Part shown: in pieces, positions 1,344 through 45,839 of the stretch
How the letters are laid out: every line of letters begins with the position of its first letter
Numbering within the stretch: the stretch's first letter is position 1
Source: a virus
Direction: 5' to 3' (one strand)
Length of the DNA stretch: 64,000 bases
IMG/VR virus record: IMGVR_UViG_3300037246_000990
Span: 32,001-96,000 of that record
Notes under the pieces: model-generated
Told to the model about the DNA's origin: nothing
The model's database searches: none
The model's input: only the letters and a program-made list of their open reading frames with translations
Program-made: the position numbers and the translations under genes

Positions 1344-1658
1344 ATGAAAGAATGGATAGAAGGTTCAGGGGTTTACAGGGTTCCAGTCGAGGAACTCCCT
1401 AAGGATGCGTGGTTTGTCAGAGACCCAAAACGGTATGAAAACGAAGAAGTACAGCCTCTTCTGCATATCTGTGAGCAGGACCTAGACACAGGGGACACCA
1501 CGACATGGCTCATCTTGACTGCAAGAGTCCGGTGGGACTTTCATCGCGGCCTTTATTACTGTACAGGGTGCAAAAAGACATGGAACTCAACAAACGAGAA
1601 TGGGTTAAGAGCTATCTGGAGCGATGGTTTAGGCACGGGCGACGAAGGTCTGGCTTGA
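1344..1658 (+). CDS. HxC/CxxC zinc-finger paralog family, member 1 (divergent)
   Basis: LLHIC...YCTGC...NGLRAIW. Confidence 0.75.
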   Translation: MKEWIEGSGVYRVPVEELPKDAWFVRDPKRYENEEVQPLLHICEQDLDTGDTTTWLILTARVRWDFHRGLYYCTGCKKTWNSTNENGLRAIWSDGLGTGDEGLA

Positions 1659-2026
1659 GAAACTACCACCGGAAGACGCTCATCCGCAAGGAGATGTGGC
1701 CCCAGATCGACGACTGGTACTGGTGCCCGAAACCCATCATCGATGAGAGGGTCCAGAAGGAGGATGACAGACTGAACATCATTGCTAGAGCCTCTCCGAT
1801 CTGGTTTGCGTTCGAATCGTGGAAGGCCCTACAATACGCATTAGGGTCCCGATTGGCACATGCTTGTGATGATGGCAGGATCAGGGCTGCATCGTGGGTG
1901 GAATACTACAGGGGCAAAGGAGGAAGTATCGGTATCTACGGTAAATGCCGACACTGTGAGGAGACCCTTTCTGATGGGATTAAAGGTATCATCATCATGG
2001 AGGAGGAGCTAGGATGGGAAACATAG
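1655..2026 (+). CDS. Zn-finger paralog family, member 2
   Basis: TTG start overlapping upstream TGA; LAHAC...KCRHCEETLSDGIKGII. Confidence 0.7.
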   Translation: MRNYHRKTLIRKEMWPQIDDWYWCPKPIIDERVQKEDDRLNIIARASPIWFAFESWKALQYALGSRLAHACDDGRIRAASWVEYYRGKGGSIGIYGKCRHCEETLSDGIKGIIIMEEELGWET

Positions 2027-2349
2027 CCCGCACCATTCGTCGTGCTGGACCACTCCGCTTTACCGCCGACTGGAGCTGTAGCACCGTCTATCAACGCGTC
2101 CCTTCCAAAGAAGAGACGCAAAAGTCGCAAACTTCGATAAAGAAAATAGCCGAGAGGGTATACCTCGTTAAGTACAACTCAGTCGCGCATGAGATGCTCG
2201 TCCACCTCTGCGAGGATCGAGGAGACTACAAAGAGATGACATTCCGTGAGAACGACGACGGCCCGATGTATTGGTGTGAAGGGTGTGGGTTCGTTCTCGA
2301 TGACGGTACAGCGATGGCAATACGACTTTACGAAGCACCGATTTCATAG
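2014..2349 (+). CDS. Zn-finger paralog family, member 3
   Basis: LVHLC...WCEGCGFVLDDG; GGAG RBS. Confidence 0.75.
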   Translation: MGNIARTIRRAGPLRFTADWSCSTVYQRVPSKEETQKSQTSIKKIAERVYLVKYNSVAHEMLVHLCEDRGDYKEMTFRENDDGPMYWCEGCGFVLDDGTAMAIRLYEAPIS

Positions 2350-2357
2350 GAGACAAC

Positions 2358-2564
2358 ATGGGTAAACGAAGACGCAATCCGAAAACAATCCTTGCAGGAG
2401 CAATAGGGTTCTCGAAAATACGTTACTGCCCGGATCACAACAAGCCTGTGAAGGCCGTGAGACTGTTCGGCAGAAAAAGTATGATGTTCCACTGTGCCGA
2501 AGGCTGCAAGCTGGACAAGAACAGAACCGTCCTCAAGGTGCCGGAAGGCCCCCAGAAACGATAA
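2358..2564 (+). CDS. small basic Cys/His protein (not a family member)
   Basis: AGGAG RBS; CPDH...HCAEGC. Confidence 0.7.
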   Translation: MGKRRRNPKTILAGAIGFSKIRYCPDHNKPVKAVRLFGRKSMMFHCAEGCKLDKNRTVLKVPEGPQKR

Positions 2565-2947
2565 TGCCGGATATAATGCTGAAGTACGGCTGCACAGAAG
2601 ACCAAATCCGATTCGAAATGGATGACTGGGCGTTGGTCGCTACGCCCGTAGGTCACGAAGGATTGGACTGTGTGCATGGATGCCACCGCAAAGACAGCAT
2701 AGGCATAGTCATTCAGTGGAGCTACGCGATACCGGGCGATCCGAATTGCCCTGGTTGTGACGCGGTCATGCCTGATGAGGTACAGGGCTTGTTCCAAATG
2801 GCAAATGCAGACTATATAGGGCGGATCCCTATTGGTTGGTACAAGCAAGAGATCGAACGTGGCGTCGCCAAAAGCTTCGCCCAACTCGAGAAGCAATACT
2901 TCCTCAGCGGGTCAGGGTATAAGTACGACCCCAAGGAGGAGGCATGA
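2564..2947 (+). CDS. Zn-finger paralog family, member 4
   Basis: MDDWAL..VHGC..CPGCDAVMPDEVQGLF. Confidence 0.8.
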   Translation: MPDIMLKYGCTEDQIRFEMDDWALVATPVGHEGLDCVHGCHRKDSIGIVIQWSYAIPGDPNCPGCDAVMPDEVQGLFQMANADYIGRIPIGWYKQEIERGVAKSFAQLEKQYFLSGSGYKYDPKEEA

Positions 2948-3480
2948 GCGGATACCACCAGATGATTAAGGATCTCATGACGAGACCTAAGATACCGGCC
3001 AGCCTTCACACAGTGGGCAAATGGGCTATACCCACAGAAAGCGCAATGCTTTTTACGGCAGGCGGGCACCCTGTTCAACCACCGCCACCTCCACATACAC
3101 TGATCTACAACGACAAAGACCCGGACTACAATCCTCATTTCGAAGACCTAAAAGAAGTAACCTGTGAAATCCTTTTTGAACTCGACGGGTGGCAAATCGA
3201 GCACTACGAAGGTACCCCTACCCCATCTGAAGTGGATTGGATCTCGCACGACTGCCCGGTAGAGAAATGGCGCTATCGCATCGATCAATGGCAATTGATG
3301 GGCGACGGCGTATGCCCTGCTTGTTGCACACCCGTTCCGGACGAGGTGATGGGATTATGGAAACTAAAGAACTTCGACAAACTCCCCGCAATGGAAGAAG
3401 CGAGACACATGAGCCACGTACGTATCTATCCGGATAGCCACACGCCTGAAGATGCAGAAGGAGATATGCCGTGGGTCTAG
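2944..3480 (+). CDS. Zn-finger paralog family, member 5 (Pro-rich N-terminal extension)
   Basis: LDGWQI..SHDC..CPACCTPVPDEVMGLW. Confidence 0.8.
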   Translation: MSGYHQMIKDLMTRPKIPASLHTVGKWAIPTESAMLFTAGGHPVQPPPPPHTLIYNDKDPDYNPHFEDLKEVTCEILFELDGWQIEHYEGTPTPSEVDWISHDCPVEKWRYRIDQWQLMGDGVCPACCTPVPDEVMGLWKLKNFDKLPAMEEARHMSHVRIYPDSHTPEDAEGDMPWV

Positions 3481-3752
3481 AAGATCTCTTCTTGTACAAC
3501 GACACACCTATAATCGAGGAAGGAACATGGAGACTCCTCGCACCTACTAAATGGGGTGTGAAATGGAAACACCTTTCCGAAGCACCTATCGTGATTCACG
3601 TATGCCCTAAAGCTCCTTTATATGCGGGGGAGCGTGAAGTCAGCTCTAACCGCATGAAAGACTCCCCATACTGCACGATATGCAAAGAAGAGGTCCCTGA
3701 GAGCATCCAAGCCGTATGGCAGATGACACATATGGAGGCAATGTTAGGATGA
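3471..3752 (+). CDS. Zn-finger paralog family, member 6
   Basis: EGTWRL..IHVC..CTICKEEVPESIQAVW. Confidence 0.8.
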   Translation: MGLEDLFLYNDTPIIEEGTWRLLAPTKWGVKWKHLSEAPIVIHVCPKAPLYAGEREVSSNRMKDSPYCTICKEEVPESIQAVWQMTHMEAMLG

Positions 3753-4024
3753 ACCCCTTTTCTCTAGCCAACTACGAATGCGTAATGGAAGATGAGACTT
3801 GGTACCTAGTCCGAAACAATTGGTCACGCAACTACAACCTACGCCATTACTGCGCTGATGGGGAGATGGACGACCTCTGTGCGAGGTACCGCTGGGATGA
3901 GTTCCAGCGGGCTTGCCGGAGATGTGGGAGCCTCCCGAGCAAAGAGATCCAAGGGATGTACGTCATGTTGACAGGAGACATGGACGCTGCCCCTCGGTGT
4001 GTACCAGAAGGGACAAAGTACTAG
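3749..4024 (+). CDS. Zn-finger paralog family, member 7
   Basis: DETWYL..RHYC..CRRCGSLPSKEIQGMY; ATGA overlap. Confidence 0.8.
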   Translation: MNPFSLANYECVMEDETWYLVRNNWSRNYNLRHYCADGEMDDLCARYRWDEFQRACRRCGSLPSKEIQGMYVMLTGDMDAAPRCVPEGTKY

Positions 4025-4032: not shown

Positions 4033-4374
4033 ATGACGTACCAACCGACAGCGTACATGAGCATGCTACAGCGAGAAGGCCGATTCCGGTTGTTGAAGAG
4101 CAAGCTGAGCAAAGACGTCCGGATCTGGCATAACTGCGAGACCTACGGCGACGCAGAACTCGTCAAGCACCGTACCGTCTACGTATGCCAGTACGGCGAC
4201 TGGGAACAGTTCGATTCTAGTCCGGATGAGCATGGCTGGCGCTGCACGATGTGCAACGCTCTCAGCCCTGAAGGGTTAACTGGAATCTACATCATGCTGG
4301 ACTGGGACCGCGCTACAAACGAAATCGCAAACGTTTCAGAGCAAATGTCCGAGTATGAGGCGTTACCGTTTTGA
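4033..4374 (+). CDS. Zn-finger paralog family, member 8
   Basis: EGRFRL..WHNC..CTMCNALSPEGLTGIY. Confidence 0.8.
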   Translation: MTYQPTAYMSMLQREGRFRLLKSKLSKDVRIWHNCETYGDAELVKHRTVYVCQYGDWEQFDSSPDEHGWRCTMCNALSPEGLTGIYIMLDWDRATNEIANVSEQMSEYEALPF

Positions 4375-4638
4375 GTGACTACCGTGAGTAGCTTCCTCGA
4401 CGAGCAGATCCTGTGGGAGGATGACGGGTTCATCATCATCACCGATCACTACATCGATCCTGGCCGGGAGGGATTACCGACTGCCACGTTGTGGCACCGA
4501 TGCCGTGACAAGACAGACGATGCCAGCGTGATATGCCGCCCGCAAGAATACCCATGGTGCTCTGGTTGTCACCTTCATGTTCCTGCTGAGCTGGTTGGGT
4601 TCTGGGAGCTGGTGCGATACGGGCAGGAGCAAGGATGA
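4375..4638 (+). CDS. Zn-finger paralog family, member 9
   Basis: DDGFII..WHRC..CSGCHLHVPAELVGFW. Confidence 0.8.
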   Translation: MTTVSSFLDEQILWEDDGFIIITDHYIDPGREGLPTATLWHRCRDKTDDASVICRPQEYPWCSGCHLHVPAELVGFWELVRYGQEQG

Positions 4639-5087
4639 GTTTATCTAACATGATTAACGTGAGAGACGTATGGAAAGACCAAGCCGAGTACATCGAAAAA
4701 GAGTACGGCGATGAGAAGCTCAAACGAGGCCGGTGGAGAGTCATCCAGTACTCCGTACACCACAGCGATGTAGGAGAGCACGGACTCTGGCACCAGTGTG
4801 AAAAGACAGAATGGGAGATGTACCTTTGTGAGTACCGAGCCGACGTAGGGTCTGACTCTAGTTTCAATGGGACCCGGAAGATCAAGCCCAACTGGCACTG
4901 CGAGAACTGCTTCGCAGTTCCACCCGCAAGCATCGTTGCTGTCTGGTGCCTGCTAGAGCCTGACGTAACCTCCGCGGAGGTGAGCACAGCCTTGAAGCTA
5001 CGCGCCGATATAGACGACGAAGAAAGGTATGATAACGTATGTTGGCAAAGCAGGCAGGTCCCCCTCCCGTACAAAGGGCCCTACTAA
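4635..5087 (+). CDS. Zn-finger paralog family, member 10
   Basis: RGRWRV..WHQC..CENCFAVPPASIVAVW. Confidence 0.8.
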   Translation: MSLSNMINVRDVWKDQAEYIEKEYGDEKLKRGRWRVIQYSVHHSDVGEHGLWHQCEKTEWEMYLCEYRADVGSDSSFNGTRKIKPNWHCENCFAVPPASIVAVWCLLEPDVTSAEVSTALKLRADIDDEERYDNVCWQSRQVPLPYKGPY

Positions 5088-5347
5088 TGGATACCCTGGA
5101 CGTCTACAAAACTGACGGGGACTGGCGGTTGTCTCGCAGGTGCGCCGGGACAAAGATGCGGCATACGTTCCTAGAGCACAACTGCGGTTACGAAGACCCC
5201 CGGGCAGTGGTACAACCTAGCAAACGGTACTGGCATGCGCTTATCTACACCGTCGAGGCCCGAAACCAGGCTTGTGCTCTTTGTCAGACCCGGGCTTCAG
5301 ACGGCCTCCAAGCGATATTCTGGATCATGAAAGAGGAGCCCATATGA
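5087..5347 (+). CDS. Zn-finger paralog family, member 11
   Basis: DGDWRL..EHNC..CALCQTRASDGLQAIFW. Confidence 0.8.
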   Translation: MDTLDVYKTDGDWRLSRRCAGTKMRHTFLEHNCGYEDPRAVVQPSKRYWHALIYTVEARNQACALCQTRASDGLQAIFWIMKEEPI

Positions 5348-5583
5348 CTGACGTCAAAACGGTCCGCTTTGAAGATGGACTTTTCAGGCTATCCCGGTAC
5401 CGATACAAGGGCGGGTTTGACTGGTGGTTCATCGAGCACCGGTGTGGCCGTGGAGGCCACTGGAAATGGTTTAGTGGGGTCCCGGAAGACTGCCACGCAC
5501 CGTGTTGGGCTTGCACAGCCGTCGTTCCGGACGGGCTCCATGCGATGTTCTGGTTCGTGAAGGATGGACAAGGTTATGAATGA
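5344..5583 (+). CDS. Zn-finger paralog family, member 12
   Basis: DGLFRL..EHRC..CWACTAVVPDGLHAMFW. Confidence 0.8.
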   Translation: MTDVKTVRFEDGLFRLSRYRYKGGFDWWFIEHRCGRGGHWKWFSGVPEDCHAPCWACTAVVPDGLHAMFWFVKDGQGYE

Positions 5584-5842
5584 CTCGAAAACGCAACCCA
5601 CCCCCTTAGCCGCCGAAGGTGGTTGGGGGTTGTATGAGCAAGGCGAAGACACGCCAGACTACATGCAAGGAACCCCTTACTTGTGGTATTTGTGGCATGA
5701 CTGTGGGCCCGAGAGGGTGGGCTGCGCCCAACGATTCATGTACAAGCATATGGACACAGCTTGTTCATGGTGTAACTGCCCTGTACCTGCGGGGCTCCAG
5801 GCGTTGTTCGTCCTGCTGACAGGAGACATGGAACATGAATAA
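5576..5842 (+). CDS. Zn-finger paralog family, member 13
   Basis: EGGWGL..WHDC..CSWCNCPVPAGLQALF. Confidence 0.8.
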   Translation: MNDSKTQPTPLAAEGGWGLYEQGEDTPDYMQGTPYLWYLWHDCGPERVGCAQRFMYKHMDTACSWCNCPVPAGLQALFVLLTGDMEHE

Positions 5843-6068
5843 AGAGACTCTGATCACTATCGATGCCTTCCGGATTACTCAACGCCCCTGGAACTCAAGC
5901 TCTGTATATATCGAGCATTATTGTAATGGGGAATACACCGGACGTGGCCCGGGTTGGTTGGTTCACGCTTGCGACACCAGAGCCAGCCAACACCCTTGCT
6001 GCTTCTGCAAAGAGAAACCAGCAGACGGGATCCAGGCCATGTTCTGGTTCTTGAAGGAAGGGTCATGA
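5835..6068 (+). CDS. Zn-finger paralog family, member 14
   Basis: IDAFRI..EHYC..CCFCKEKPADGIQAMFWFLKE. Confidence 0.8.
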   Translation: MNKETLITIDAFRITQRPWNSSSVYIEHYCNGEYTGRGPGWLVHACDTRASQHPCCFCKEKPADGIQAMFWFLKEGS

Positions 6069-6304
6069 CAGTTCTGATCACTATCGGTAAGTTCCGGCTT
6101 ACCTACCGCGACCGCATCGCCTCGGGCATGCGTGATGTCTGCATCGAGCATAAATGCGAAAGCGCGAACGCCTGGCCCATGAAAGGCTGGCATCCTTTCG
6201 TTTACGGGCTCGACTACCGGGGTATTTCGTGTTTCGCATGTCATGCGACCCCTGATGAAGGTATCCAGGCCATGTTCTGGTTCTTGAAGGAAGCCCGTGA
6301 CTAA
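6065..6304 (+). CDS. Zn-finger paralog family, member 15
   Basis: IGKFRL..EHKC..CFACHATPDEGIQAMFWFLKE. Confidence 0.8.
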   Translation: MTVLITIGKFRLTYRDRIASGMRDVCIEHKCESANAWPMKGWHPFVYGLDYRGISCFACHATPDEGIQAMFWFLKEARD

Positions 6305-6536
6305 ACAAACCCACATTACAGATGGGAACTGGCGCGTCACAGGCTGGAACGACTCAGGTATCTATGCGTATACCATGATCGAGCATTTATGCGTCAAACA
6401 CCCAGACCTCTCTGGATGGTGCGACCTGAGCTACGGCGTTGCGTATCGCGGGATGCCTTGCATGTACTGCAAGAAATCCGCTCCGGGGGGCATCCAGGCT
6501 GTGTACTGGTTCTTGAAGGATAACGAACTGAAATGA
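6297..6536 (+). CDS. Zn-finger paralog family, member 16
   Basis: DGNWRV..EHLC..CMYCKKSAPGGIQAVYW. Confidence 0.8.
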   Translation: MTKQTHITDGNWRVTGWNDSGIYAYTMIEHLCVKHPDLSGWCDLSYGVAYRGMPCMYCKKSAPGGIQAVYWFLKDNELK

Positions 6537-6832
6537 CTAAAGACGAATGCGAAGTCAAGCTCGAAATGGGCGATTGGATGATAGCGAAGTTCTATGCATC
6601 GAGCGTACACTTCATGTACCACCGATGTCATATTGATAAAGTGTCGTATTACGCAGCGATGTTCCACGAACTGGCGTTCTCTCCAAGAGCAGGATGCTCC
6701 AACCCCTGCTGGGCCTGTGCTGGTTGTGGAGCCTCGGTTCCAGAGGAGCTGGAAACCGTGTATCTACTGCTCGAATCAGAGTACGCGTACGACATCATGC
6801 AAAAGCACCAAAACACCTTAAATAACACCTAA
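6533..6832 (+). CDS. Zn-finger paralog family, member 17
   Basis: MGDWMI..YHRC..CAGCGASVPEELETVY. Confidence 0.8.
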   Translation: MTKDECEVKLEMGDWMIAKFYASSVHFMYHRCHIDKVSYYAAMFHELAFSPRAGCSNPCWACAGCGASVPEELETVYLLLESEYAYDIMQKHQNTLNNT

Positions 6833-10678: not shown

Positions 10679-10918
10679 ATGACAACTCAGTACGTTATCT
10701 CAGCGCTGTTCACACTGGGTGACTGGTGTATCAGCAGCGACCCAACGGCACTACCTCGACACTATGCAGCTCATCGCTGTCCTGGTAAACACACGTACAC
10801 AACATGGGCTTGGGCTGTACCAGACTCTAGATTTAACAGGTTCGTGTGTTACTACTGCCATGAGTCTGTGCCTGATGAGATACAAGGGCTACTGGTCTTG
10901 CTCTCATCAAAGATATAA
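10679..10918 (+). CDS. Zn-finger paralog family, member 18
   Basis: LFTLGDWCI..AHRC..CYYCHESVPDEIQGLL. Confidence 0.82.
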   Translation: MTTQYVISALFTLGDWCISSDPTALPRHYAAHRCPGKHTYTTWAWAVPDSRFNRFVCYYCHESVPDEIQGLLVLLSSKI

Positions 10919-12128: not shown

Positions 12129-12350
12129 ATGGTAGACCTAGAAGCAGACATCGAAGGCTTGAAGGCTAAGATCGAGGCGCTTCAAAGATCAAAGAGGCGT
12201 ATGATCAAGGCTCACATGGGTCTCATCAAGGAGAACAAACGCAAGAAGAGGCAAGCTAAGAGGCTGGCCCAGATGCTGGAAGCAGGAGAAAATCTCTACG
12301 GTAGCTACGCAGACTGGACAGCGGAGCAGTTCGGAGAGGCACCGAAGTGA
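12129..12350 (+). CDS. hypothetical coiled-coil protein
   Basis: AGGAG RBS. Confidence 0.7.
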   Translation: MVDLEADIEGLKAKIEALQRSKRRMIKAHMGLIKENKRKKRQAKRLAQMLEAGENLYGSYADWTAEQFGEAPK

Positions 12351-12625
12351 CAGCCTCGCCCGCTGCTTTGTTTACTCTGGGTGACTGGAGTATACACACG
12401 GACTCGAACACCGTGGAAGGCCCTAAATTCTACGCAAACCATAAGTGTACGAAGTACAACACGCAGCCAGCAGGCCGGGGTCTGTTGGCTGAGTATGTAA
12501 TGAGTCGGTTTGCGTGGGTCAAGGAGGATGATGGTTTCAAGTGCTATTACTGCCAAAAGCATGTGCCTGATGAGATACAAGGGATGCTGCTGATGTTCTG
12601 GTCGGGTATCAAAGGGAGTCGGTGA
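12347..12625 (+). CDS. Zn-finger paralog family, member 19
   Basis: LFTLGDWSI..ANHKC..CYYCQKHVPDEIQGML. Confidence 0.82.
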   Translation: MTASPAALFTLGDWSIHTDSNTVEGPKFYANHKCTKYNTQPAGRGLLAEYVMSRFAWVKEDDGFKCYYCQKHVPDEIQGMLLMFWSGIKGSR

Positions 12626-12888
12626 TGGCCGAGACTTTGTTTACTCTGGGTGACTGGAGTATCGTGGATAACTATGAAGAAGAGTGCTTTGAGTACTACG
12701 CAAATCATAAGTGTGACCTCAAAGAATACAAGAGGGTACGCAAGCTAACCAACACTGCAGAGGTTAGACCTGGAAGCTATGCTTGGTTCAGCACGGACGA
12801 TCCAAATGTTTGTTACTACTGCTGTGTGCCTGTGCCTGCTGAGATCCAAGGTTTGATGGTGCTGCTCATGGCAGGAGTCAGGAGGTAA
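12625..12888 (+). CDS. Zn-finger paralog family, member 20
   Basis: LFTLGDWSI..ANHKC..CYYCCVPVPAEIQGLM. Confidence 0.82.
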   Translation: MAETLFTLGDWSIVDNYEEECFEYYANHKCDLKEYKRVRKLTNTAEVRPGSYAWFSTDDPNVCYYCCVPVPAEIQGLMVLLMAGVRR

Positions 12889-13178: not shown

Positions 13179-13493
13179 ATGAGTAAACCCGCCGGGTTCA
13201 GGCACTCCGAGATGTTCGTAGACGATACCTACCTAGAGCTAGAAGATAATTGGATGATACATAGGTATCGAAACCTCGGTGGCCGATGGAATGCTGGTGC
13301 TAGACACAAGCACGTTAATGATGCAAGATGTACCGGCACCAACTCAATAGACTCTGTGTATGCCTACCTCGACCATGATGCGGATGATGGCTGGAGCTGC
13401 ATGGTGTGTGGAGAGACAGCACCCGACCGAGTACTAGGGATGGAAAAGTTGGTTCAATACGGTAACAGGTGTGAAAACGAGGAGACACGATGA
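13179..13493 (+). CDS. Zn-finger paralog family, member 21 (HxH variant)
   Basis: EDNWMI..RHKH..CMVCGETAPDRVLGM. Confidence 0.75.
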   Translation: MSKPAGFRHSEMFVDDTYLELEDNWMIHRYRNLGGRWNAGARHKHVNDARCTGTNSIDSVYAYLDHDADDGWSCMVCGETAPDRVLGMEKLVQYGNRCENEETR

Positions 13494-30178: not shown

Positions 30179-30857
30179 CGCAAAGACAAACGCTAAGACA
30201 AAGAAGATGTTGGATGAGTTCGGATACGAAGGGGTCATTCACTACATGGCGCCTGACGTGGTGGCTGACGGAAAACACACAGTATGCCCTCATAGCACGA
30301 TAGGTTGCCGTGAGTCTTGTCTATATACTGCTGGTCGAGGAGCTATGAGAAATGTGCAAGATGCACGCATCCGTAAGACACTGGAGTTCCTCAAGGACAA
30401 GCAAGGGTACGCAGACAAGTTGGTCAAAGAACTGGCCAACCTTGAGACCCGTGCCTTGAAGAAGGGTTACACGCCAGTAGCTCGGCTGAATGGTACGTCA
30501 GACATCCCATGGGAGAACTACATCGACATGGAAGCCCTCCCCAACGTCCGATTCTATGACTACACCAAGGGTTATATGAGGATGCAGAGCTGGCTGCGTG
30601 GGGTGCTACCTTTCAACTATCATCTGACATTCAGCAATGATGAACACACGACGCTTGCAGAGCGGCACTTCATCCTGGCGAAGGGAGGCACCGTGGCCAT
30701 GGTATTCAGGGATAAGATCCCCGACTGCTGGCAGATGTACCCTGTAATTTCAGGTATGACACACGATTTTAGATTCCGTGACAAGACAGGCTGCATCATA
30801 GGGCTACTCGCAAGGGGCCGTGCCAAGCAAGACAGCACAGGGTTTGTGGTGGATTGA
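30144..30857 (+). CDS. conserved phage protein, GP88-like
   Basis: CPHS..GC...CLYTAGRG; RLNGTSDI; FYDYTK; NYHLTFS. Confidence 0.72.
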   Translation: MKETAVTNLLSNAKTNAKTKKMLDEFGYEGVIHYMAPDVVADGKHTVCPHSTIGCRESCLYTAGRGAMRNVQDARIRKTLEFLKDKQGYADKLVKELANLETRALKKGYTPVARLNGTSDIPWENYIDMEALPNVRFYDYTKGYMRMQSWLRGVLPFNYHLTFSNDEHTTLAERHFILAKGGTVAMVFRDKIPDCWQMYPVISGMTHDFRFRDKTGCIIGLLARGRAKQDSTGFVVD

Positions 30858-31144
30858 TGAGTACGAGCAACGTAGGTACACTAAAGATCCTAGTACCTGA
30901 CATACAAGGGTGGGCAATAGTTAAACACCAGTTCAGCGTGACGGGTACTTCCATCCATGGTGAACATTTAATAGGATGCAAACATGCCTTCGATAGACTG
31001 ATAGCTCGTTGGTGCTGGGAGTGGAGCGATGCTGGTGTAGAGAATACGGACCGCTGTTGGGTGTGTAAAGAACCTGTGCCAGAAGAGATCGTAGCGCTAG
31101 TAGCGATGATGAATTGGGAGAAGATACAACGTGGCAAACCTTAA
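30857..31144 (+). CDS. Zn-finger paralog family, member 28 (CxH variant)
   Basis: QGWAI..GCKH..CWVCKEPVPEEIVALVAMMNW. Confidence 0.78.
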   Translation: MSTSNVGTLKILVPDIQGWAIVKHQFSVTGTSIHGEHLIGCKHAFDRLIARWCWEWSDAGVENTDRCWVCKEPVPEEIVALVAMMNWEKIQRGKP

Positions 31145-32090
31145 AACATTCAAGAAGTACAAGCCCAAGTACAGGAAGCCGGTGCACAAGACAGACGAAG
31201 AACTGAGAGGCCCCTTCAAGCCTATGAAACCGTTTACTATTCACGACCCTAAGGTACACGTACAGTACCCATCTCTATGCACCCCCAAGATTGACGGGAT
31301 CCGGTGTGTCACGTATCCAAACGGGACACCTATGAGCTACCAACTCAAGCCCATCCCCAACCTCCACATCCGCAAGGTGTTGGAAGAGTACGGGGTAGAG
31401 GGTATGGACGGTGAGCTGTTCATCAGAGGTGCCAAGACATTCGGTGAGTCCTCCGGTCCCATCATGAAGGTAGATGGTGAACCTGACTTCATTTACTACG
31501 TGTTCGATATCTATAACAGCCTTGACTTTTACAACCAGAGAGTGAAGCAGTTGGACAAGCTGCCTAAGCCGAGGCCAGCGTGCATCGAGTTGGTAAAACC
31601 AACCCTTGTCTTTGATGCCGATGGGTTCATGAAGTATTGGAACAAGTGTGTAGACGAGGGGTACGAGGGAGTCATCGCAAGGCAAGGGCATGTGTACCTC
31701 CACGGTCGTAGCACCATGACACACGGTGGTATGGGTAAGTACAAGCATTTCCAAGATGATGAGGCAGAGATCATTGGGTTTGAAGAGATGTGTACTAATA
31801 CGAATCCCAAGAAAACCAATGCTCATGGTAGGTCGGAGAGGTCGAGTGCTAAGGCAGGCAAGGTACCCAACGGCCACCTTGGTAAGTGGTTATGCCGAGA
31901 CCTCAAGACAGGCATCGAGTTCTCCTGCGGTACCATGAAGGGTGTGACGAAGAAGCAACGCAAGGAGTGGTGGAGTAACAGGCAAATCTACATTGGGTAC
32001 ATCTGTAAGTACAAACATCAGCCAAGCGGAGAGACAGCGAAGCCTCGTTTCCCGGTTTGGTTGGGGTGGCGTTCAAAGGATGACATGTAA
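31131..32090 (+). CDS. ATP-dependent DNA ligase
   Basis: KIDGIR, DGEL, YVFD, GYEGVI, PRFP. Confidence 0.93.
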   Translation: MANLKTFKKYKPKYRKPVHKTDEELRGPFKPMKPFTIHDPKVHVQYPSLCTPKIDGIRCVTYPNGTPMSYQLKPIPNLHIRKVLEEYGVEGMDGELFIRGAKTFGESSGPIMKVDGEPDFIYYVFDIYNSLDFYNQRVKQLDKLPKPRPACIELVKPTLVFDADGFMKYWNKCVDEGYEGVIARQGHVYLHGRSTMTHGGMGKYKHFQDDEAEIIGFEEMCTNTNPKKTNAHGRSERSSAKAGKVPNGHLGKWLCRDLKTGIEFSCGTMKGVTKKQRKEWWSNRQIYIGYICKYKHQPSGETAKPRFPVWLGWRSKDDM

Positions 32091-32353
32091 TGGCTTATAA
32101 GTTTGAAGTACTGGTTGAGGAAGGTGACTTTCGGATAGCCCGTGTTAAAGGGGATGCCCAACATCAGAGATGGATCGTTGTTCAACATCGTTGCGACCCA
32201 GATGTATACGTCGATAGGCTATTTAGTGATAACGGGTGGTCACTTTGTTATCATAGTGATAGGCGATGCTACTGCTGTAAAACGCCTGAACCTGACAAGA
32301 TGATAGGCTTCCACGACTTAATAATGTGGAACAATACTGAGTATAGAGTATGA
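32090..32353 (+). CDS. Zn-finger paralog family, member 29
   Basis: EGDFRI..QHRC..CYCCKTPEPDKMIGFHDLIMW. Confidence 0.8.
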   Translation: MAYKFEVLVEEGDFRIARVKGDAQHQRWIVVQHRCDPDVYVDRLFSDNGWSLCYHSDRRCYCCKTPEPDKMIGFHDLIMWNNTEYRV

Positions 32354-33839: not shown

Positions 33840-34145
33840 ATGCAAGCTAATGGTAAAGATATAATAGAAGTGATACGTATGGGGGAGTGGAGCATCCTCA
33901 ATATGTTGGAGGCTAGTTCACGGGGTGTAGAGGGGCCAGGGGTCGTACATAGACCCTGCGACGGTTGGATAAGGTTTGGGATGCGGGAAAACGCTTTGTA
34001 CTGCCGCTCATGCCATGAAGCTATGCCTAAGGATATAGTAACACTTTGGTTACTCCTCGCAGCGGACTTAGCTTGTAGTAATGGCTTCTACAAGGGAGTT
34101 ACCATCGCCGATGTCACCCAGGATGATCAAGGAGGTTACTCATGA
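33840..34145 (+). CDS. Zn-finger paralog family, member 30
   Basis: MGEWSI..VHRPC..CRSCHEAMPKDIVTLW; GGAGG RBS. Confidence 0.78.
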   Translation: MQANGKDIIEVIRMGEWSILNMLEASSRGVEGPGVVHRPCDGWIRFGMRENALYCRSCHEAMPKDIVTLWLLLAADLACSNGFYKGVTIADVTQDDQGGYS

Positions 34146-35646: not shown

Positions 35647-35982
35647 ATGAGCGGACTTAGGTTCTCGCCCCGGTGGGCACTCTCGCCTAGAGATTGGGAT
35701 ATTCATCTATCCTGCTCGAAAAGAGTAATACCCGACCAACACGCCCAGAGTGGCACCATAAAAGGTAAACAACAAAGACAAGAAGAAGATAAACGTAAAG
35801 GACTACAACAAGAACAGTGGTTCTATATTGAGAGAGATGGGAATAGTAATAATTGTACTGTGGTACATGACTCCAGCTTTCTCCCCTCTGAGGGGTTGAT
35901 GTATTTTGGGCAACGAAACCAGCCATTCAACTTCAGGGGACAACAGCACACCCCCTCATGTCTTGGTGTGATGCCAGCATGA
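35647..35982 (+). CDS. hypothetical protein
   Basis: GGAGG RBS after the promoter. Confidence 0.55.
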   Translation: MSGLRFSPRWALSPRDWDIHLSCSKRVIPDQHAQSGTIKGKQQRQEEDKRKGLQQEQWFYIERDGNSNNCTVVHDSSFLPSEGLMYFGQRNQPFNFRGQQHTPSCLGVMPA

Positions 35983-36401
35983 GGGGGCCTTCTAAGTCTC
36001 ACACCTATAATCCAGGCGAAGGAGCCAAAACCAGAATGGTAGAATGGGACGGCACTCAGTACATAGACATAGAGACTTACTACAAGCGCGTGGTTTTGAG
36101 CATGCCTCAGGACGGTGACGCCCTCCTAGGAGCCATGACACACCTCAATGCACTGACGTACCTCGGTTGTAGTAAGCTGTTCGTAGCTGAGACCGATGAG
36201 ATGGATATCTACGTAGATGCTTGGCTGGTCAACGGTGCCTTCATCACCCACAAGCACCCTGAGTTCGGGGTGGTGAAGCAAGACAGCTGGGTGACCGGGA
36301 TGGTAGAATGTGGGCTACGTCACAGGGCGTGTGAACTATGTGGGAAAGTGATACCGGGTGAGATTGAAATGATGCATCACTTTTACAGGCTAGACAACTA
36401 A
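35979..36401 (+). CDS. Zn-finger paralog family, member 31 (HxH variant)
   Basis: VDAWLV..THKH..CELCGKVIPGEIEMM; start uncertain. Confidence 0.72.
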   Translation: MRGPSKSHTYNPGEGAKTRMVEWDGTQYIDIETYYKRVVLSMPQDGDALLGAMTHLNALTYLGCSKLFVAETDEMDIYVDAWLVNGAFITHKHPEFGVVKQDSWVTGMVECGLRHRACELCGKVIPGEIEMMHHFYRLDN

Positions 36402-43630: not shown

Positions 43631-44364
43631 TGGAAGATGAAAACGGCCTGCCCGCAGGCTTTGGTGAGGTGGACAAGGACTTTCAGCGCGAGGCATACGA
43701 AGAGTCCAAGAAGATCAGAGATAGTGGTGATGGGAAGACCCTCTTCCTGAAGTCGGGGATGACCCACCTACGTATCCTCCCTCCGGTCAAGGGTGCCAAG
43801 TCATGGTTCCGTGCGTACAAAGAGCATGGGCTCAGGACCGATGGGAAGTACGGGACGTTCACTTGCCCTACGTCGATTGACGACAGCGAGTGCCCCATCT
43901 GTGAGGTAGGTAAGGAACTGTACGAGGCGAAGGGAGACACGAACATCAAGAAGGCTAAGAAACTGTACGCGAAGCAAGCCTACTTGTACAACGCCTACGT
44001 GTACAGCTCTCCGGACGGCAAGACTCTAGCTGATGGTATCTTCACTGTTAAGTCCGGGTCAATGGTGTTCAAGCAGTTCATGGAGTACGACAACGATCCG
44101 GCAGGCGATTGGGGTGATATCTCCAACATCGCCAGCGGTGTTGAGCTGAAGGTTACACGCACCGGCAAGGGTCGGTTCGATACTGAGTACGGGGTTATGG
44201 GCGTGCCTGCACGGTCTAACATCGTGGACCAGGTGACCGCGAAAGGCGTGGACTTTGGTGAGCCCACTGATCTGACTGAGGTATACCCTCCGCTTTCTTA
44301 TGATGAGTTGGCGGATGTGTACGCGAAGTCGGACAACGCTACTCAGGAAGCTGTAGTAGAATAA
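43630..44364 (+). CDS. single-stranded DNA-binding protein (T4 gp32-like)
   Basis: LRILPP, H..C..CPIC Zn site, G..LKVTRTGKG..TEY; precedes RecA. Confidence 0.8.
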   Translation: MEDENGLPAGFGEVDKDFQREAYEESKKIRDSGDGKTLFLKSGMTHLRILPPVKGAKSWFRAYKEHGLRTDGKYGTFTCPTSIDDSECPICEVGKELYEAKGDTNIKKAKKLYAKQAYLYNAYVYSSPDGKTLADGIFTVKSGSMVFKQFMEYDNDPAGDWGDISNIASGVELKVTRTGKGRFDTEYGVMGVPARSNIVDQVTAKGVDFGEPTDLTEVYPPLSYDELADVYAKSDNATQEAVVE

Positions 44365-44370
44365 GGTCTG

Positions 44371-44417
44371 GTGGGGTGGTGCCTTTGAGTCGAGACCATT
44401 GGTCAGGGCCACCCCGC
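44371..44417 (+). other. intergenic stem-loop between SSB and RecA
   Basis: GTGGGGTGG...CCACCCCGC followed by CTTT. Confidence 0.5.
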
Positions 44418-44436
44418 CTTTCCGCCGGGAGATTAA

Positions 44437-45495
44437 ATGAATAGCTTCGACAACATGTTCAAAGCGGTAGTCAAGAAGACAAAGAAAGATCCCAACACAG
44501 CCGTGTTCAAACCAGGCGACATCAACATCAAGAGCAACATCCCCTGGAGTATTCGCACTGGAATACCTGAGCTAGACTTCAACATGGGGAAACCAGGCTG
44601 GCCTGCAGGCCGGTGTGTTGAGCTGTACGGATTTGAACACAGTGGTAAAACAACATTAGGGTATCATGCCATTGCCGAAGCGCAGCGCATGAGAGGTAGC
44701 GCGTGGTTCCTTGACACAGAGAAGTCGTGGGATGAGCTACGAGCGATGGACTGTGGTGTAGACCCTGATTATCATCTAGGTATCGGCGACCCCGACTCAG
44801 TGGACGCTATGTTCCGACAGATCCAGTACATCATTGAGGCAAGAGAAGAAGACAACGACGGCAAACCGCTGGTCATCGTAGTTGACTCCGTCACTGGCGC
44901 TGCTACTGAAGGTATGAAGGCTAAGACCATCGGCGAGATTGAGAAGATTGCACAGGATGCCAAGGCTATCCGTGGGGGTATCCGTCGTATTCAGCCTGAT
45001 ATCGCAGGGCTCAACATCAACCTGTTCATGATCAATCATGCGACAGCCAACATCACAGCCAACAAGTACGCCAAGCAGAGTGACTCGTCTGGGGGGCACT
45101 CTATCAAGCTGGCTGCTACTGTACGTTGTTCGATGAAGCATGCAGGGTGGATTACAGACACGGACAAGATCAAGCGGCTCGGCCAGAAGATCAGCCTTAA
45201 AATAGAAAAGCTGAAGGGGTCTCAATTAGATTACCCTGAAGTGCAGGACACCCCGCTGCTCAACACAGTGGGCTTTGACACGACTGAGAGCCTACTACGT
45301 GCTGGTATAAAGGCGGGTTGGGTGGAACATAAGAAGGGCTCCCAGGCTTACAAGCTATACGATGAGGAGTTCGACCGGAAGTCGTGGCCCGCACTTGTGT
45401 TTGGCCGTGGTGGGATTGATGCAGCATACACAGAGTGGATCGATTGGTGCATCGAGGATGGGTGCATGACTAGGTGGGGAAGGGGTCTCGAATGA
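44437..45495 (+). CDS. recA: RecA/UvsX recombinase
   Basis: GRCVELYGFEHSGKTT, FLDTE, IVVDSV, SGGHSIKLAATVR. Confidence 0.93.
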   Translation: MNSFDNMFKAVVKKTKKDPNTAVFKPGDINIKSNIPWSIRTGIPELDFNMGKPGWPAGRCVELYGFEHSGKTTLGYHAIAEAQRMRGSAWFLDTEKSWDELRAMDCGVDPDYHLGIGDPDSVDAMFRQIQYIIEAREEDNDGKPLVIVVDSVTGAATEGMKAKTIGEIEKIAQDAKAIRGGIRRIQPDIAGLNINLFMINHATANITANKYAKQSDSSGGHSIKLAATVRCSMKHAGWITDTDKIKRLGQKISLKIEKLKGSQLDYPEVQDTPLLNTVGFDTTESLLRAGIKAGWVEHKKGSQAYKLYDEEFDRKSWPALVFGRGGIDAAYTEWIDWCIEDGCMTRWGRGLE

Positions 45496-45839
45496 GTAGG
45501 CGTACTAGCTATGAGATTTTCCAAACGATGTCACTAACAGGCAACATAAAAGAAATAAAGCTTTATGTTGACGGGGCTTGGAGTCTCTATGGCAGACCAT
45601 CTACTTGGGGGTTGGATAATCTTATGAAGTCTTATTTTATCCATGATTGCCCTAACTATAAGAAGAGCATATGGTATCATTATTGGATTAACTATCTGGG
45701 CGAGGAAAAGCAGAGTACTCTCTTCGATATTGATTGCCAGGAGTGCAACACATCAGCACCCCAAGGACTTCAAGCACTCTGGCGTTTTCATAGCTTTGGG
45801 TGTGAAACAGCTCTTATCTTTATGGAGAAGACTACATGA
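45492..45839 (+). CDS. Zn-finger paralog family, member 32
   Basis: DGAWSL..IHDC..CQECNTSAPQGLQALW. Confidence 0.8.
   Translation: MSRRTSYEIFQTMSLTGNIKEIKLYVDGAWSLYGRPSTWGLDNLMKSYFIHDCPNYKKSIWYHYWINYLGEEKQSTLFDIDCQECNTSAPQGLQALWRFHSFGCETALIFMEKTT

What the first reader, a model, noticed from the sequence alone, without database searches (positions are those of the whole stretch)
1344..45839. About 32-member paralogous family of mini zinc-finger proteins with a constant framework and hypervariable loop
Seen: at least 32 ORFs of roughly 75-180 aa share the ordered signature [D/E]-G-x-[W/F]-x-[L/I] ... H-x-C (variants HxH, CxH, HxxC) ... variable loop of about 10-40 aa ... C-x2-C-x3-4-P-x-[G/E]-[I/L]-[Q/V]-[G/A]-hydrophobic helix, often ending in W. 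Starts: 1344, 1655, 2014, 2564, 2944, 3471, 3749, 4033, 4375, 4635, 5087, 5344, 5576, 5835, 6065, 6297, 6533, 10679, 12347, 12625, 13179, 18338, 20713, 22876, 26657, 27713, 29909, 30857, 32090, 33840, 35979, 45492. The segments between motifs are mostly unalignable and often aromatic-rich. Knowledge: phages rarely keep more than a few paralogs, and I do not recognise this signature as a named family (not Lar, FmdB, DksA/TraR or ZAS). Inference: this is a repertoire of binders on one Zn-stabilised scaffold. The conserved helix could dock a common partner (for example RNA polymerase, a protease or ATPase, or other members), while the variable loops recognise different host targets such as defence proteins.
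Basis: partly seen in the sequence, partly recalled or inferred. Interest (0 to 1): 0.92.

Follow-up and report, generated by a model that had tools for sequence, protein, structure and literature searches.

The report
Phage zinc mini-protein multigene family
An uncultured 120-kb phage spends about 8% of its genome on some 30 fast-diverging copies of one small, probably zinc-binding protein that matches no named family; it is most likely a set of binders aimed at host proteins, but its function is untested.

Summary
All 32 ORFs exist. Leave-one-out HMMs recover 28 of 32 at E<1e-5. Profile-profile tests make o1655 and o35979 probable, o2014 possible and o1344 unproven. No other ORF in the 119.6-kb genome matches.

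H-x-C...C-x2-C is near-invariant in 234 pooled sequences. Two AlphaFold models share one topology: three strands, H-x-C, a poorly modelled loop, the C-x2-C knuckle and a helix.

No Pfam, NCBIfam, PHROG or PDB match is significant.

The family spans the phage clade: 32-35 copies in a complete relative and 17 in a 49-kb fragment. It has 1,082 metagenome cluster representatives.

Orthologs diverge faster than core genes (63% vs 80% identity; median dN/dS 0.33 vs 0.15), fastest in the loop. Copies turn over without recent duplication.

The proteins are acidic to neutral, and the array sits next to a candidate promoter.

The best reading is a zinc-scaffold binder repertoire against host proteins; this is inferred. 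The closest precedent is the ~35-copy zinc ribbon of Bacillus phage G, which shows no detectable homology. This scan has noted similar arrays in other phages.

The parts
1309..1337 (+). Candidate sigma-70-type promoter TTGCAA-17-TATAAT. It ends 6 nt before the ATG of the first array gene. A mirror-image site lies on the - strand (1297-1269) inside inverted repeat 1267-1339.
   Evidence: It matches 10 of 12 consensus positions. The total of promoter-like sites in 1-19000 (17) equals the shuffle expectation (16.1), so this is only suggestive.
1344..1658 (+). o1344, 104 aa. Doubtful member that heads the array.
   Evidence: Leave-one-out E=0.87. hhalign probability 4.4%. Ligands are in the right order. 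G001 ortholog is 80% identical.
1655..2026 (+). o1655, 123 aa from the TTG start (an ATG at 1505 gives 173 aa). Probable member.
   Evidence: Leave-one-out E=7e-5. hhalign probability 74%. It is the only member with a clear ortholog in distant G004 (57% identity, 125 bits vs 28).
2014..2349 (+). o2014, 111 aa. Possible member.
   Evidence: Leave-one-out E=0.054. hhalign probability 39.5%.
2564..2947 (+). o2564, 127 aa. Member with a C-terminal extension.
   Evidence: Leave-one-out E=1.4e-10. No reciprocal ortholog in G001.
2944..3480 (+). o2944, 178 aa. Member with a Pro-rich N-terminal extension.
   Evidence: Leave-one-out E=8.3e-10. No reciprocal ortholog in G001.
3471..3752 (+). o3471, 93 aa. 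Member.
   Evidence: Leave-one-out E=3.2e-10.
3749..4024 (+). o3749, 91 aa. Member.
   Evidence: Leave-one-out E=4e-10. No reciprocal ortholog in G001.
4033..4374 (+). o4033, 113 aa. Member.
   Evidence: Leave-one-out E=5.7e-13.
4375..4638 (+). o4375, 87 aa. Member.
   Evidence: Leave-one-out E=2.9e-9.
4635..5087 (+). o4635, 150 aa. Member with a C-terminal extension.
   Evidence: Leave-one-out E=2.5e-9.
5087..5347 (+). o5087, 86 aa. Member of the FW[FI]-K-E helix subgroup.
   Evidence: Leave-one-out E=9.6e-13. Helix motif.
5344..5583 (+). o5344, 79 aa. Member.
   Evidence: Leave-one-out E=3.9e-13.
5576..5842 (+). o5576, 88 aa. Member.
   Evidence: Leave-one-out E=2e-9.
5835..6068 (+). o5835, 77 aa. 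Member.
   Evidence: Leave-one-out E=1.5e-13. Nearest paralog is its neighbour o6065 (43% identity).
6065..6304 (+). o6065, 79 aa. Member.
   Evidence: Leave-one-out E=2.3e-12.
6297..6536 (+). o6297, 79 aa. Member.
   Evidence: Leave-one-out E=1.3e-12.
6533..6832 (+). o6533, 99 aa. Last gene of the 17-gene array.
   Evidence: Leave-one-out E=4.1e-10. 15 of the 16 array junctions are -13 to +8 nt.
10679..10918 (+). o10679, 79 aa. Member and subject of the first structure model.
   Evidence: Leave-one-out E=1.4e-15. AF2 pLDDT 80.1 with strands 8-13, 16-20 and 28-32 and helix 66-76.
12347..12625 (+). o12347, 92 aa. Member.
   Evidence: Leave-one-out E=3e-14.
12625..12888 (+). o12625, 87 aa. Member.
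   Evidence: Leave-one-out E=1.9e-14.
13179..13493 (+). o13179, 104 aa. Member with a longer H...C spacing.
   Evidence: Leave-one-out E=4.7e-9. Alignment.
18338..18643 (+). o18338, 101 aa. Member, starting 1 nt after the stop of the DUF932 gene.
   Evidence: Leave-one-out E=1.3e-10. Junction. Neighbour annotation.
20713..20955 (+). o20713, 80 aa. Member, starting 2 nt after the stop of the ATPase gene.
   Evidence: Leave-one-out E=9.2e-11..
22876..23280 (+). o22876, 134 aa. Member that overlaps the upstream phrog_1314 gene by 4 nt and has a C-terminal extension.
   Evidence: Leave-one-out E=3.1e-8..
26657..26998 (+). o26657, 113 aa. Member.
   Evidence: Leave-one-out E=2.1e-9.
27713..27994 (+). 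o27713, 93 aa. Member upstream of the helicase gene.
   Evidence: Leave-one-out E=1.3e-11..
29909..30178 (+). o29909, 89 aa. Member with an insertion between C-x2-C and the helix, lying downstream of an HNH gene.
   Evidence: Leave-one-out E=5.8e-6.. No reciprocal ortholog in G001.
30857..31144 (+). o30857, 95 aa. Member that overlaps the GP88-family gene by 1 nt.
   Evidence: Leave-one-out E=2.5e-9..
32090..32353 (+). o32090, 87 aa. Member that overlaps the ligase-like gene by 1 nt.
   Evidence: Leave-one-out E=6.4e-12..
33840..34145 (+). o33840, 101 aa. Member lying between RtcB and the DnaB-like helicase, overlapping the latter by 4 nt.
   Evidence: Leave-one-out E=6.7e-7..
35979..36401 (+). 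o35979, 140 aa. Probable member with an H-K-H variant site and an N-terminal extension.
   Evidence: Leave-one-out E=7.3e-4. hhalign probability 63%, over the C-terminal half only.
45492..45839 (+). o45492, 115 aa. Member lying between RecA and the SbcD-like gene with 4-nt overlaps on both sides, and subject of the second structure model.
   Evidence: Leave-one-out E=5.1e-10. AF2 pLDDT 73.2 with strands 22-27, 30-36 and 45-51, loop 64-73 below pLDDT 50, and helix 91-114..

Best explanation
This is a lineage-specific multigene family of about 30 small cytoplasmic proteins built on one scaffold. The scaffold is a three-stranded sheet ending in H-x-C, a variable loop of 12-44 residues, a C-x2-C knuckle and a C-terminal amphipathic helix. 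His and the three Cys most likely hold one structural zinc ion (inferred).

The genes belong to the phage's early and replication transcription block. Seventeen lie head to tail at its promoter-proximal end. The rest are wedged singly between replication and recombination genes and are translationally coupled to them.

The framework is conserved. The loop and tails diverge fast, and whole copies are lost or replaced between related phages.

The most likely function (inferred, untested) is a repertoire of small binding proteins, each of which recognises a different host protein through its loop, for host takeover or counter-defence.
For: Shown:
- One family: leave-one-out HMM recovers 28 of 32 at E<1e-5.
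- Ligands: in 234 pooled sequences His is present in 234, the first Cys in 226 and C-x2-C in 233.
- Same predicted topology in two members that are 22% identical.
- Real genes: dN/dS is 0.15-0.55 in 24 of 24 ortholog pairs. SD-like sites precede 25 of 32 starts against 22% of random positions.
- Faster evolution than core genes: ortholog identity has a median of 63% (24 pairs) against 80% (178 other pairs). Median dN/dS is 0.33 against 0.15 for 25 large non-family pairs (my medians from the table).
- The loop is the fastest part: identity 53% against 71-75% for the framework, and omega 0.41 against 0.19-0.27. The difference is 0.18, with a bootstrap interval of 0.08-0.30.
- Turnover: 8 of 32 members in G000 and 11 of 35 in G001 lack a reciprocal partner. 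None of these 19 has a copy more than 49% identical anywhere, so they are not recent duplicates.
- At the divergence of G004 (polymerase 61% identical) only 1 of 17 members keeps a clear ortholog.
- Not basic: median pI is 5.4 and 0 of 32 are above 8.
- Loops are enriched in Trp, Tyr, Asp and Pro and depleted in Leu and Ile.
- The array starts the + strand block next to a candidate promoter.
- Tight gene coupling: 15 of 16 array junctions are -13 to +8 nt. 11 of 15 other members start within -4 to +10 nt of the upstream stop.
- The same genome carries RtcB, an HD-domain protein and tRNAs. From general knowledge these fit a phage that invests in countering host attack.

Inferred: zinc binding, a binding function and host targets.
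Against: - No partner, no expression data and no host are known.
- Omega in the loop is 0.41, not above 1, so positive selection is not shown. Relaxed constraint would also fit.
- dS is 0.5-1.8, and near saturation for some pairs.
- Part of the Trp enrichment in the loop comes from one conserved Trp, present in 121 of the 150 metagenome hits.
- The two structure models share much of their alignment, so they are not independent.
- The promoter call is no better than the shuffle expectation for the region as a whole.
- Known anti-defence loci usually hold unrelated small genes, not one paralogous family (recalled, not tested).
Confidence: 0.42

Rival explanations
1. The proteins are sequence-specific nucleic-acid-binding factors (transcription factors or structural DNA/RNA binders). 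Each would recognise a different site through its loop. This is what was proposed in print for the ~35-copy zinc ribbon of Bacillus phage G.
For: Iyer et al. 2021 (PMC7824862, section 3.4.3, passage seen) suggest specific TFs or structural DNA-binding proteins for the phage G expansion. Small zinc modules often bind nucleic acids (general knowledge). The phage has its own sigma factor, so added transcription control is plausible.
Against: None of the 32 is basic. Median pI is 5.4 and net charge at pH 7 runs from -16 to +0.8. The family profile finds nothing in the phage G genome at E<=1. No nucleic-acid-binding Pfam family is matched.
Confidence: 0.13
2. The proteins are accessory subunits or regulators of the phage's own replication and recombination proteins. 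Each interspersed copy would work with the gene it is coupled to.
For: 11 of 15 non-array members start within -4 to +10 nt of the stop of an upstream gene. Those upstream genes include DUF932, an ATPase, a phrog_1314 protein, a GP88-family protein, a ligase-like protein and RecA. 13 of the 15 non-array members keep a reciprocal-best partner in G001, at corresponding places along the genome.
Against: Seventeen copies sit in an array with no partner gene. G001 has extra, very divergent copies at the same junctions, for example two around the ATPase-linked copy and one after the phrog_1314 gene. In G004 the interspersed copies are no longer recognisable orthologs, while the core genes are. Partner-locked subunits should co-evolve slowly with conserved partners.
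Confidence: 0.15
3. The copies are selfish or near-neutral gene cassettes. They would spread and swap by recombination between related phages and persist without a host-directed function.
For: Copies are gained, lost or replaced at fixed junctions between conserved genes. Nearest paralogs are physical neighbours in 7 of 32 cases against 2.0 expected. The genome also carries several HNH homing-type endonucleases.
Against: All 24 ortholog pairs are under purifying selection, and the ligand set is near-invariant in 234 sequences. Copy number stays at 32-35 in both complete genomes. No nuclease or recombinase motif is present, and no flanking repeats beyond the coding similarity itself were found.
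Confidence: 0.1
4. It is not one family. The shared Cys/His pattern would be a chance or convergent feature of unrelated small ORFs.
For: Median pairwise identity is only 20%. o1344 fails the statistical tests.
Against: 28 of 32 pass leave-one-out at E<1e-5. The motif occurs 26 times on the coding strand against once on the other. The profile finds 32 matches in G001 and 1,082 cluster representatives elsewhere, with the same signature.
Confidence: 0.02

Closest known systems
[quoted passage not shown]
   Same: Dozens of copies of one small zinc-binding protein in a single phage genome, with function unknown.
   Different: There is no detectable homology: the family profile gives 0 matches in the 497,513-bp phage G record at E<=1. 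This host genome is 120 kb, not jumbo. The ligand signature is H-x-C...C-x2-C plus a helix.
Generic zinc ribbon / zinc-knuckle modules (for example Pfam Zn_ribbon families)
   Same: A C-x2-C knuckle, about four metal ligands and small size. Single members give sub-threshold hits to DUF2614, Zn_ribbon_9 and zf_DPOE_2.
   Different: The first ligand pair is H-x-C at the end of a strand, not a second C-x2-C knuckle. An obligatory C-terminal helix follows. No zinc-ribbon Pfam model is matched by more than 1 of 30 members, and none reaches its cut-off.
Primase zinc-binding domain (Pfam PF01807 Zn_ribbon_DnaG; T7-type ZBD)
   Same: A Cys/His pair, a spacer and C-x2-C, followed by a helix (recalled). 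ESM Atlas neighbours include a viral cluster auto-named 'DNA primase (Fragment)' and one where 10% of members carry PF01807.
   Different: PF01807 finds nothing in this genome at E<=10, although it hits in 12 of 14 control genomes. The phage primase (37033-37884) has its own CPEC...CHRATC motif. hhalign between the family and that domain gives a probability of 2.5%.
PH-like superfold (Ran-binding, EVH1/WH1 and PH domains)
   Same: Antiparallel strands capped by a C-terminal helix. These domains top both VIA-align lists. Examples: 9b62_E at Z 4.8, rmsd 3.3, 73 residues aligned; 2p8v_A at Z 4.6, rmsd 4.1, 68 aligned; 5j3q_A at Z 4.1, rmsd 3.6, 67 aligned.
   Different: Z stays below 5, while the tool's own benchmark puts chance-level best hits at Z 7-8. 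PH-like domains have seven strands and no zinc site (recalled). The two models share alignment rows, so the recurrence is not independent.
Anti-defence / host-takeover gene islands of phages (anti-CRISPRs, early accessory genes; general knowledge, plus passages of PMC12028318 seen on fast-turnover anti-defence regions)
   Same: Small, acidic, early-block, fast-diverging genes that are gained and lost between close relatives.
   Different: Those islands usually mix unrelated families (recalled). Here a single scaffold is reused about 30 times. No member matches a known anti-defence protein. PADLOC and dedicated anti-defence libraries were not searched.
'CxxC motif proteins' of halovirus ChaoS9 (Dyall-Smith et al. 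2019, PMC6471424; gene-table passages seen)
   Same: Several very small Cys-motif ORFs scattered through a tailed-virus genome.
   Different: There, seven ORFs are labelled by motif only, and the passages I saw do not describe them as one paralogous family. Foldseek against BFVD lists one of them at E=2.9, which is not significant.
Other mini-protein arrays logged by this scan (e1-5711552, e1-5712381, e1-6138645 and others)
   Same: Tandem arrays of 13-48 fast-diverging small, mostly metal-binding paralogs in uncultured large phages, all with untested function.
   Different: A sequence look-up with o10679 found look-alikes only in this genome. These are AI notes that I did not check, apart from the paper they cite.

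Membership tests
This family itself (unnamed H-x-C...C-x2-C mini-protein family) | Significant score against a profile built without the sequence under test. | tested here: met
   28 of 32 score E<1e-5. o1655 scores 7e-5, o35979 7e-4, o2014 0.054 and o1344 0.87. hhalign probabilities for these four are 74%, 63%, 40% and 4%.
This family itself | Four metal ligands, H, C, C and C, in fixed order. | tested here: met
   Among the 32: H 32 of 32, first C 31 of 32, C-x2-C 32 of 32. Among 234 pooled sequences: 234, 226 and 233. H-to-C spacing is one residue in 207 of 234.
This family itself | Zinc is actually bound, with tetrahedral geometry. | not testable with these tools
   Structure prediction returns no coordinates.
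Pfam PF01807 Zn_ribbon_DnaG (primase CHC2 zinc ribbon) | Match to the family HMM at or near its 24.9-bit cut-off. | tested here: not met
   0 matches in the whole genome at E<=10, while controls hit in 12 of 14 genomes. hhalign against the phage's own primase ZBD gives a probability of 2.5%.
Bacillus phage G zinc-ribbon expansion | Detectable sequence homology to the phage G copies. | tested here: not met
   Profile A1 finds 0 matches at E<=1 in NC_023719.1. The same kind of search gave 32 matches in G001. Remote homology below HMM sensitivity is not excluded.
ZAS anti-sigma factors | A contiguous H-x3-C-x2-C motif (recalled from memory). | tested here: not met
   H and the first C are 1 residue apart in 207 of 234 sequences, and the C-x2-C lies 12-44 residues further on. 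No anti-sigma Pfam family is matched.
   None of these families appears among matches at E<=0.1 for any of the 30 members scanned, or at E<=1 for the 10 scanned earlier.
PH-like superfold | Structural alignment clearly above background. | tested here: inconclusive
   The best Z is 4.1 for model 1 and 4.8 for model 2, with no chain at Z>=5. The tool's benchmark puts chance best hits at Z 7-8.
Phage counter-defence / host-takeover proteins (a functional class, not a homology family) | Small size, early genomic position, fast divergence and variable presence between relatives. | tested here: met
Phage counter-defence / host-takeover proteins | Binds or inhibits a host protein or defence system. 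| not testable with these tools
   The host is unknown and there are no interaction data.

The most novel reading that the evidence does not exclude
A mid-sized phage lineage maintains a heritable repertoire of about 30 zinc-clamped mini-binders. The repertoire evolves by loop diversification and cassette replacement on a fixed scaffold. Each binder would neutralise a different host defence or housekeeping protein, making this a phage-side, germline-encoded analogue of an immune receptor repertoire. The scaffold may be a new fold.
Probability: 0.3. Interest if true: 0.8.

Novelty: new variant of a known kind. Interest (0 to 1): 0.55.

Why it matters
If the copies are binders, each is a ready-made probe for a host protein that matters during infection. 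The scaffold, about 75 residues with one metal site and one free loop, would be a compact natural template for engineered binders.

The case also shows that large paralog expansions are not confined to jumbo phages. Here one family fills 8.3% of a 120-kb genome. It has 1,082 cluster representatives at 50% identity in public metagenomes, none carrying a name among those I looked up.

It adds a well-delimited, alignable family, with an HMM, two models and ortholog sets, to a class of phage genes that remains functionally unexplained.

Tried and rejected
- Primase zinc-binding-domain lead from the ESM Atlas: rejected. PF01807 and Toprim_2 find nothing in the genome. The primase at 37033-37884 (phrog_47) has its own zinc motif. 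hhalign gives a probability of 2.5%.
- Structural neighbours: Foldseek against PDB and BFVD gave no hit at E<=1e-3. VIA-align wide gave a best Z of 4.1 and 4.8. A profile search of PDB sequences returned only His-tag and repeat artefacts of designed TIM barrels.
- Homo-oligomer co-fold of o10679, two copies: no verdict (score 0.00). This is not evidence either way.
- Fused long forms: none at E<=1e-3 among proteins of 313-2000 aa. The tool itself calls this weak evidence.
- RNA evidence: no RNA holder is listed. The only run is a DNA run that may be the source sample.
- A DNA pattern for the C-terminal motif in IMG/VR gave 37 stretches. HMM scoring showed true members only in 7 stretches, from 3 contigs of this clade; the other 30 are chance.
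- The search for related loci with alignment A1 failed because the alignment has no conserved 7-10 column stretch. I used the DNA polymerase instead.
- tblastn of o10679 against GenBank phages: no match at E<=0.01.
- Literature searches (listings only, except the three papers named) found no description of this family. The claim 'not in print' rests on these six searches of open-access text only.
- Recent tandem duplication as the source of lineage-specific copies: rejected. The best identity of any such copy to any other is 26-49%.
- PADLOC was not searched. The genome contigs and metagenome-contig scans were not used, so presence in prophages is untested.

Full report
WHAT THE WINDOW IS. The window is bases 32001-96000 of a single 119,599-bp virus record with an 87-bp exact terminal repeat. 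Large ORFs on the - strand fill both arms of the genome (1-33.2 kb and 93-119.6 kb). A central + strand block (genome 33.3-92.6 kb) holds small genes followed by replication and recombination genes. These include DNA polymerase I, a DnaB-like helicase, a second helicase, a sigma factor, RtcB, an ATPase and an SbcC-like protein. They also include RecA, an SbcD-like phosphoesterase, DUF932, a GP88-family protein, a ligase OB domain, an AAA protein and an HD domain. A primase, a gp32-like SSB, an exonuclease and several HNH endonucleases complete the set. The nearest GenBank phage polymerases are under 30% identical, so this is a deep, uncultured lineage.

THE OBSERVATION. A loose version of the C-terminal motif occurs 26 times in + frames and once in - frames. 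An HMM of the 32 hits exactly those 32 among the 1,229 segments of the whole genome. Because that is circular, each member was scored against an HMM built from the other 31. 28 of 32 reach E<1e-5, o1655 and o35979 reach 7e-5 and 7e-4, and o2014 and o1344 do not pass (0.054 and 0.87). Profile-profile comparison with orthologs added gives 74%, 63%, 40% and 4% for these four, against mostly 0.1-3% for shuffles. I therefore count 28 solid, 2 probable, 1 possible and 1 unproven member. The family occupies 9,918 nt, or 8.3% of the genome.

THE SIGNATURE. The signature is L-x3-G-x-W-x-[IL] ... H-x-C ... W ... C-x2-C-x4-P-[DE]-[GE]-[IL]-Q-[GA], followed by a hydrophobic helix. In 234 pooled sequences His is present in 234, the first Cys in 226 and C-x2-C in 233. 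The pool is the 32 of this genome, 35 of G001, 17 of G004 and the 150 best metagenome hits, 9 of which are near-identical to window proteins. The loop between the two ligand pairs is 12-44 residues long (median 22). It is enriched in Trp (3.65x), Tyr (2.1x), Asp and Pro, and depleted in Leu and Ile, relative to the phage's large ORFs. Part of the Trp signal is one conserved Trp (121 of 150 hits).

STRUCTURE. AlphaFold2 of o10679 with the 30-row paralog alignment gives pLDDT 80.1 and pTM 0.68. It shows strands 8-13, 16-20 and 28-32 (ending at H32-x-C34), a weaker loop, C57-x2-C60 and helix 66-76. o45492 is 22% identical to o10679. Modelled with a 50-row alignment, it gives pLDDT 73.2 and the same order of elements: strands 22-27, 30-36 and 45-51 (H51-x-C53), loop 64-73 below pLDDT 50, C82-x2-C85 and helix 91-114. 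The alignments overlap, so the agreement is not independent. Coordinates are not returned, so the ligand geometry could not be measured. Zinc binding is an inference.

NO KNOWN NEIGHBOUR. No structural neighbour is significant. PH-like domains recur at the top of both VIA-align lists, but at Z no higher than 4.8, below the tool's own chance benchmark. No Pfam, NCBIfam or PHROG family is matched by more than one member or at a significant level.

DISTRIBUTION. A profile search of 1.84 billion cluster representatives finds 1,082 proteins at E<=1e-3 and 41 at E<=1e-10. The 150 listed are all 67-194 aa. Their median identity to the nearest window paralog is 36%. Every source name seen is 'hypothetical' or 'uncharacterized', and all sources are metagenomes.

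Using the polymerase, 15 related IMG/VR loci were found. The complete relative G001 (119,470 bp, polymerase 87% identical) has 32 profile matches, or 35 ORF-level hits. Fragments G002 to G005 (32-49 kb) have 5, 7, 17 and 6. A motif scan of IMG/VR yielded true members only in contigs of this clade. The expansion is thus a stable trait of the lineage and is not seen outside it, within the limits of these searches. One metagenome protein, P0001, carries two family domains in tandem.

EVOLUTION. Between G000 and G001, 24 family pairs are reciprocal best hits with a median identity of 63%. The 178 other pairs have a median of 80%; that set was built from all + strand ORFs of at least 50 aa and so includes some non-coding frames. 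Nei-Gojobori dN/dS is 0.15-0.55 for the 24 family pairs (median 0.33). For 25 non-family pairs of at least 200 codons it is 0.05-0.49 (median 0.15). The values are; the medians are my own arithmetic from that table. So the genes are under purifying selection but evolve about twice as freely as core genes.

Each pair was split by landmarks. The N-terminal framework has 71% identity and omega 0.27. The loop has 53% and 0.41. The C-terminal framework has 75% and 0.19. The tails have 58% and 0.47. The loop-minus-framework difference is 0.18, with a codon-bootstrap interval of 0.08-0.30. Positive selection is not shown.

Eight of 32 members in G000 and 11 of 35 in G001 have no reciprocal partner. 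None of these 19 is more than 49% identical to any other copy in either genome. They therefore reflect differential loss, cassette replacement or very fast divergence, not recent duplication. In G004 only the o1655 counterpart is a clear ortholog (57% identity, 125 bits against 28). The other 16 have best hits of 20-45%, no better than paralogs. Paralogs within G000 are ancient (median identity 20%, maximum 47%). Nearest paralogs are physical neighbours in 7 of 32 cases, against 2.0 expected and a maximum of 8 in 5,000 draws. This is a trace of old tandem duplication.

GENE LAYOUT. The first 17 members form a head-to-tail array at 1344-6832, and 15 of its 16 junctions are -13 to +8 nt. Just upstream, inside inverted repeat 1267-1339, lie mirror-image TTGCAA-17-TATAAT sites on both strands at the point where transcription direction switches. 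This would make the array promoter-proximal. The region as a whole has no more promoter-like sites than its shuffles, so I treat this as suggestive.

The other 15 members lie further along. Eleven of them start within -4 to +10 nt of the stop of the gene upstream. SD-like sites precede 25 of 32 starts, against 22% of random positions. Many interspersed members end their helix with a hydrophobic-x-[NSQD]-W-[DEG] motif. A block of array members ends with F-W-F-[LV]-K-[DE] instead.

WHAT IT MOST LIKELY DOES. Several features are shown: a small scaffold fixed by four ligands, a free loop with a binding-surface composition, no basic members (median pI 5.4, 0 of 32 above 8), position in the early and replication block, fast divergence and copy turnover. 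Together they fit a repertoire of protein binders directed at host factors, for host takeover or counter-defence. That step is inference. No partner, host or expression datum exists.

The rivals are weighed in their own section:
- Nucleic-acid binding, as proposed for the phage G zinc ribbon in PMC7824862, is disfavoured by the acidic charge.
- Partner-specific accessory subunits of the replication proteins fit the tight coupling. They do not fit the 17-gene array or the turnover at fixed junctions.
- Selfish cassettes do not fit the uniform purifying selection.

COMPARISON WITH WHAT IS KNOWN. [quoted passage not shown] The present family shows no detectable homology to it. It sits in a genome a quarter of that size, and it has a different ligand pattern and charge.

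This scan has already logged comparable arrays in other uncultured phages. Those are AI notes that I did not check, beyond verifying the paper they cite. A sequence look-up found no look-alike of o10679 outside this genome.

So the kind of thing, a large expansion of a small metal-binding protein in a phage, is known. This family, its scaffold and its mixed layout of array plus interspersed copies in a mid-sized phage are not described in anything I could search.

VERDICT. It is a new and large protein family of unknown function and possibly new fold. The phenomenon it belongs to has precedent. Interest is moderate to high for phage biologists. The functional reading is plausible but unproven.

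Noticed in passing
window 8134-8232, 8733-8831, 11564-11662; partial copies 8484-8504 and 8565-8586: A repeated ~99-nt intergenic element whose 5' part resembles a tRNA acceptor/D arm. Copies are 86% and 66% identical to the reference. Each ends in an RBS and the ATG of a small ORF, and one follows tRNA-His directly. ARAGORN does not call them tRNAs.
   Followed up: partly
window 1267-1339: A 32-nt inverted repeat carrying mirror-image TTGCAA-17-TATAAT sites on both strands, at the switch between the - strand arm and the + strand block. The + strand -10 element ends 6 nt before the first ATG, which could mean a leaderless or very short-leader transcript.
   Followed up: partly
window 497-1216(-), 21185-21658, 29434-29898, 38628-39089: Four HNH_3 (PF13392) endonuclease genes; the three + strand ones all match the same PHROGs. 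The - strand ORF as called overlaps tRNA-Thr (1139-1212, - strand), so its true start is probably further in.
   Followed up: partly
window 36368-36604 and 36576-36836; also 38011-38307 and 38449-38616: Other small Cys-motif ORFs unrelated to the family. Two adjacent paralogs begin M-P-H-Y-x-x-x-C and look FmdB-like (recalled, not tested). Two further small C-x2-C ORFs lie nearby. The phage carries several kinds of zinc mini-proteins.
   Followed up: no
window 37033-37884: A primase (phrog_47, E=4e-22) that matches no Pfam family at E<=0.01. It has a CPEC...CHRATC zinc motif near its N-terminus. The called TTG start is immediately followed by an in-frame ATG.
   Followed up: partly
window 7722-8048 and 11088-11474: A second, two-copy paralog pair of about 110-128 aa that shares a 34-nt near-identical stretch (repeat D15). 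Function unknown.
   Followed up: no
window 32522-33748, 13912-14367, 1139-1212(-), 11486-11561: An RtcB RNA ligase, an HD_4-domain protein and two tRNAs (Thr-tgt and His-gtg). This gene set would suit repair of, or resistance to, host attacks on tRNA or nucleotide signalling (general knowledge, untested).
   Followed up: no
protein P0001 (metagenome hit, 192 aa): One protein carries two family domains in tandem. The second is 50% identical to o6533. This is either a natural fusion of neighbouring array genes or a read-through in gene calling.
   Followed up: no
window 54187-57384 and 57538-58287: A 1,065-aa multi-domain glycosyltransferase and a family-2 glycosyltransferase at the end of the + block. 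These are possibly for DNA or surface modification.
   Followed up: no
window 23455-24522: A 355-aa ORF with no Pfam or PHROG match. Its ortholog pair is unusually fast-evolving for a large gene (63.5% identity, dN/dS 0.49). It lies just upstream of the sigma factor.
   Followed up: no
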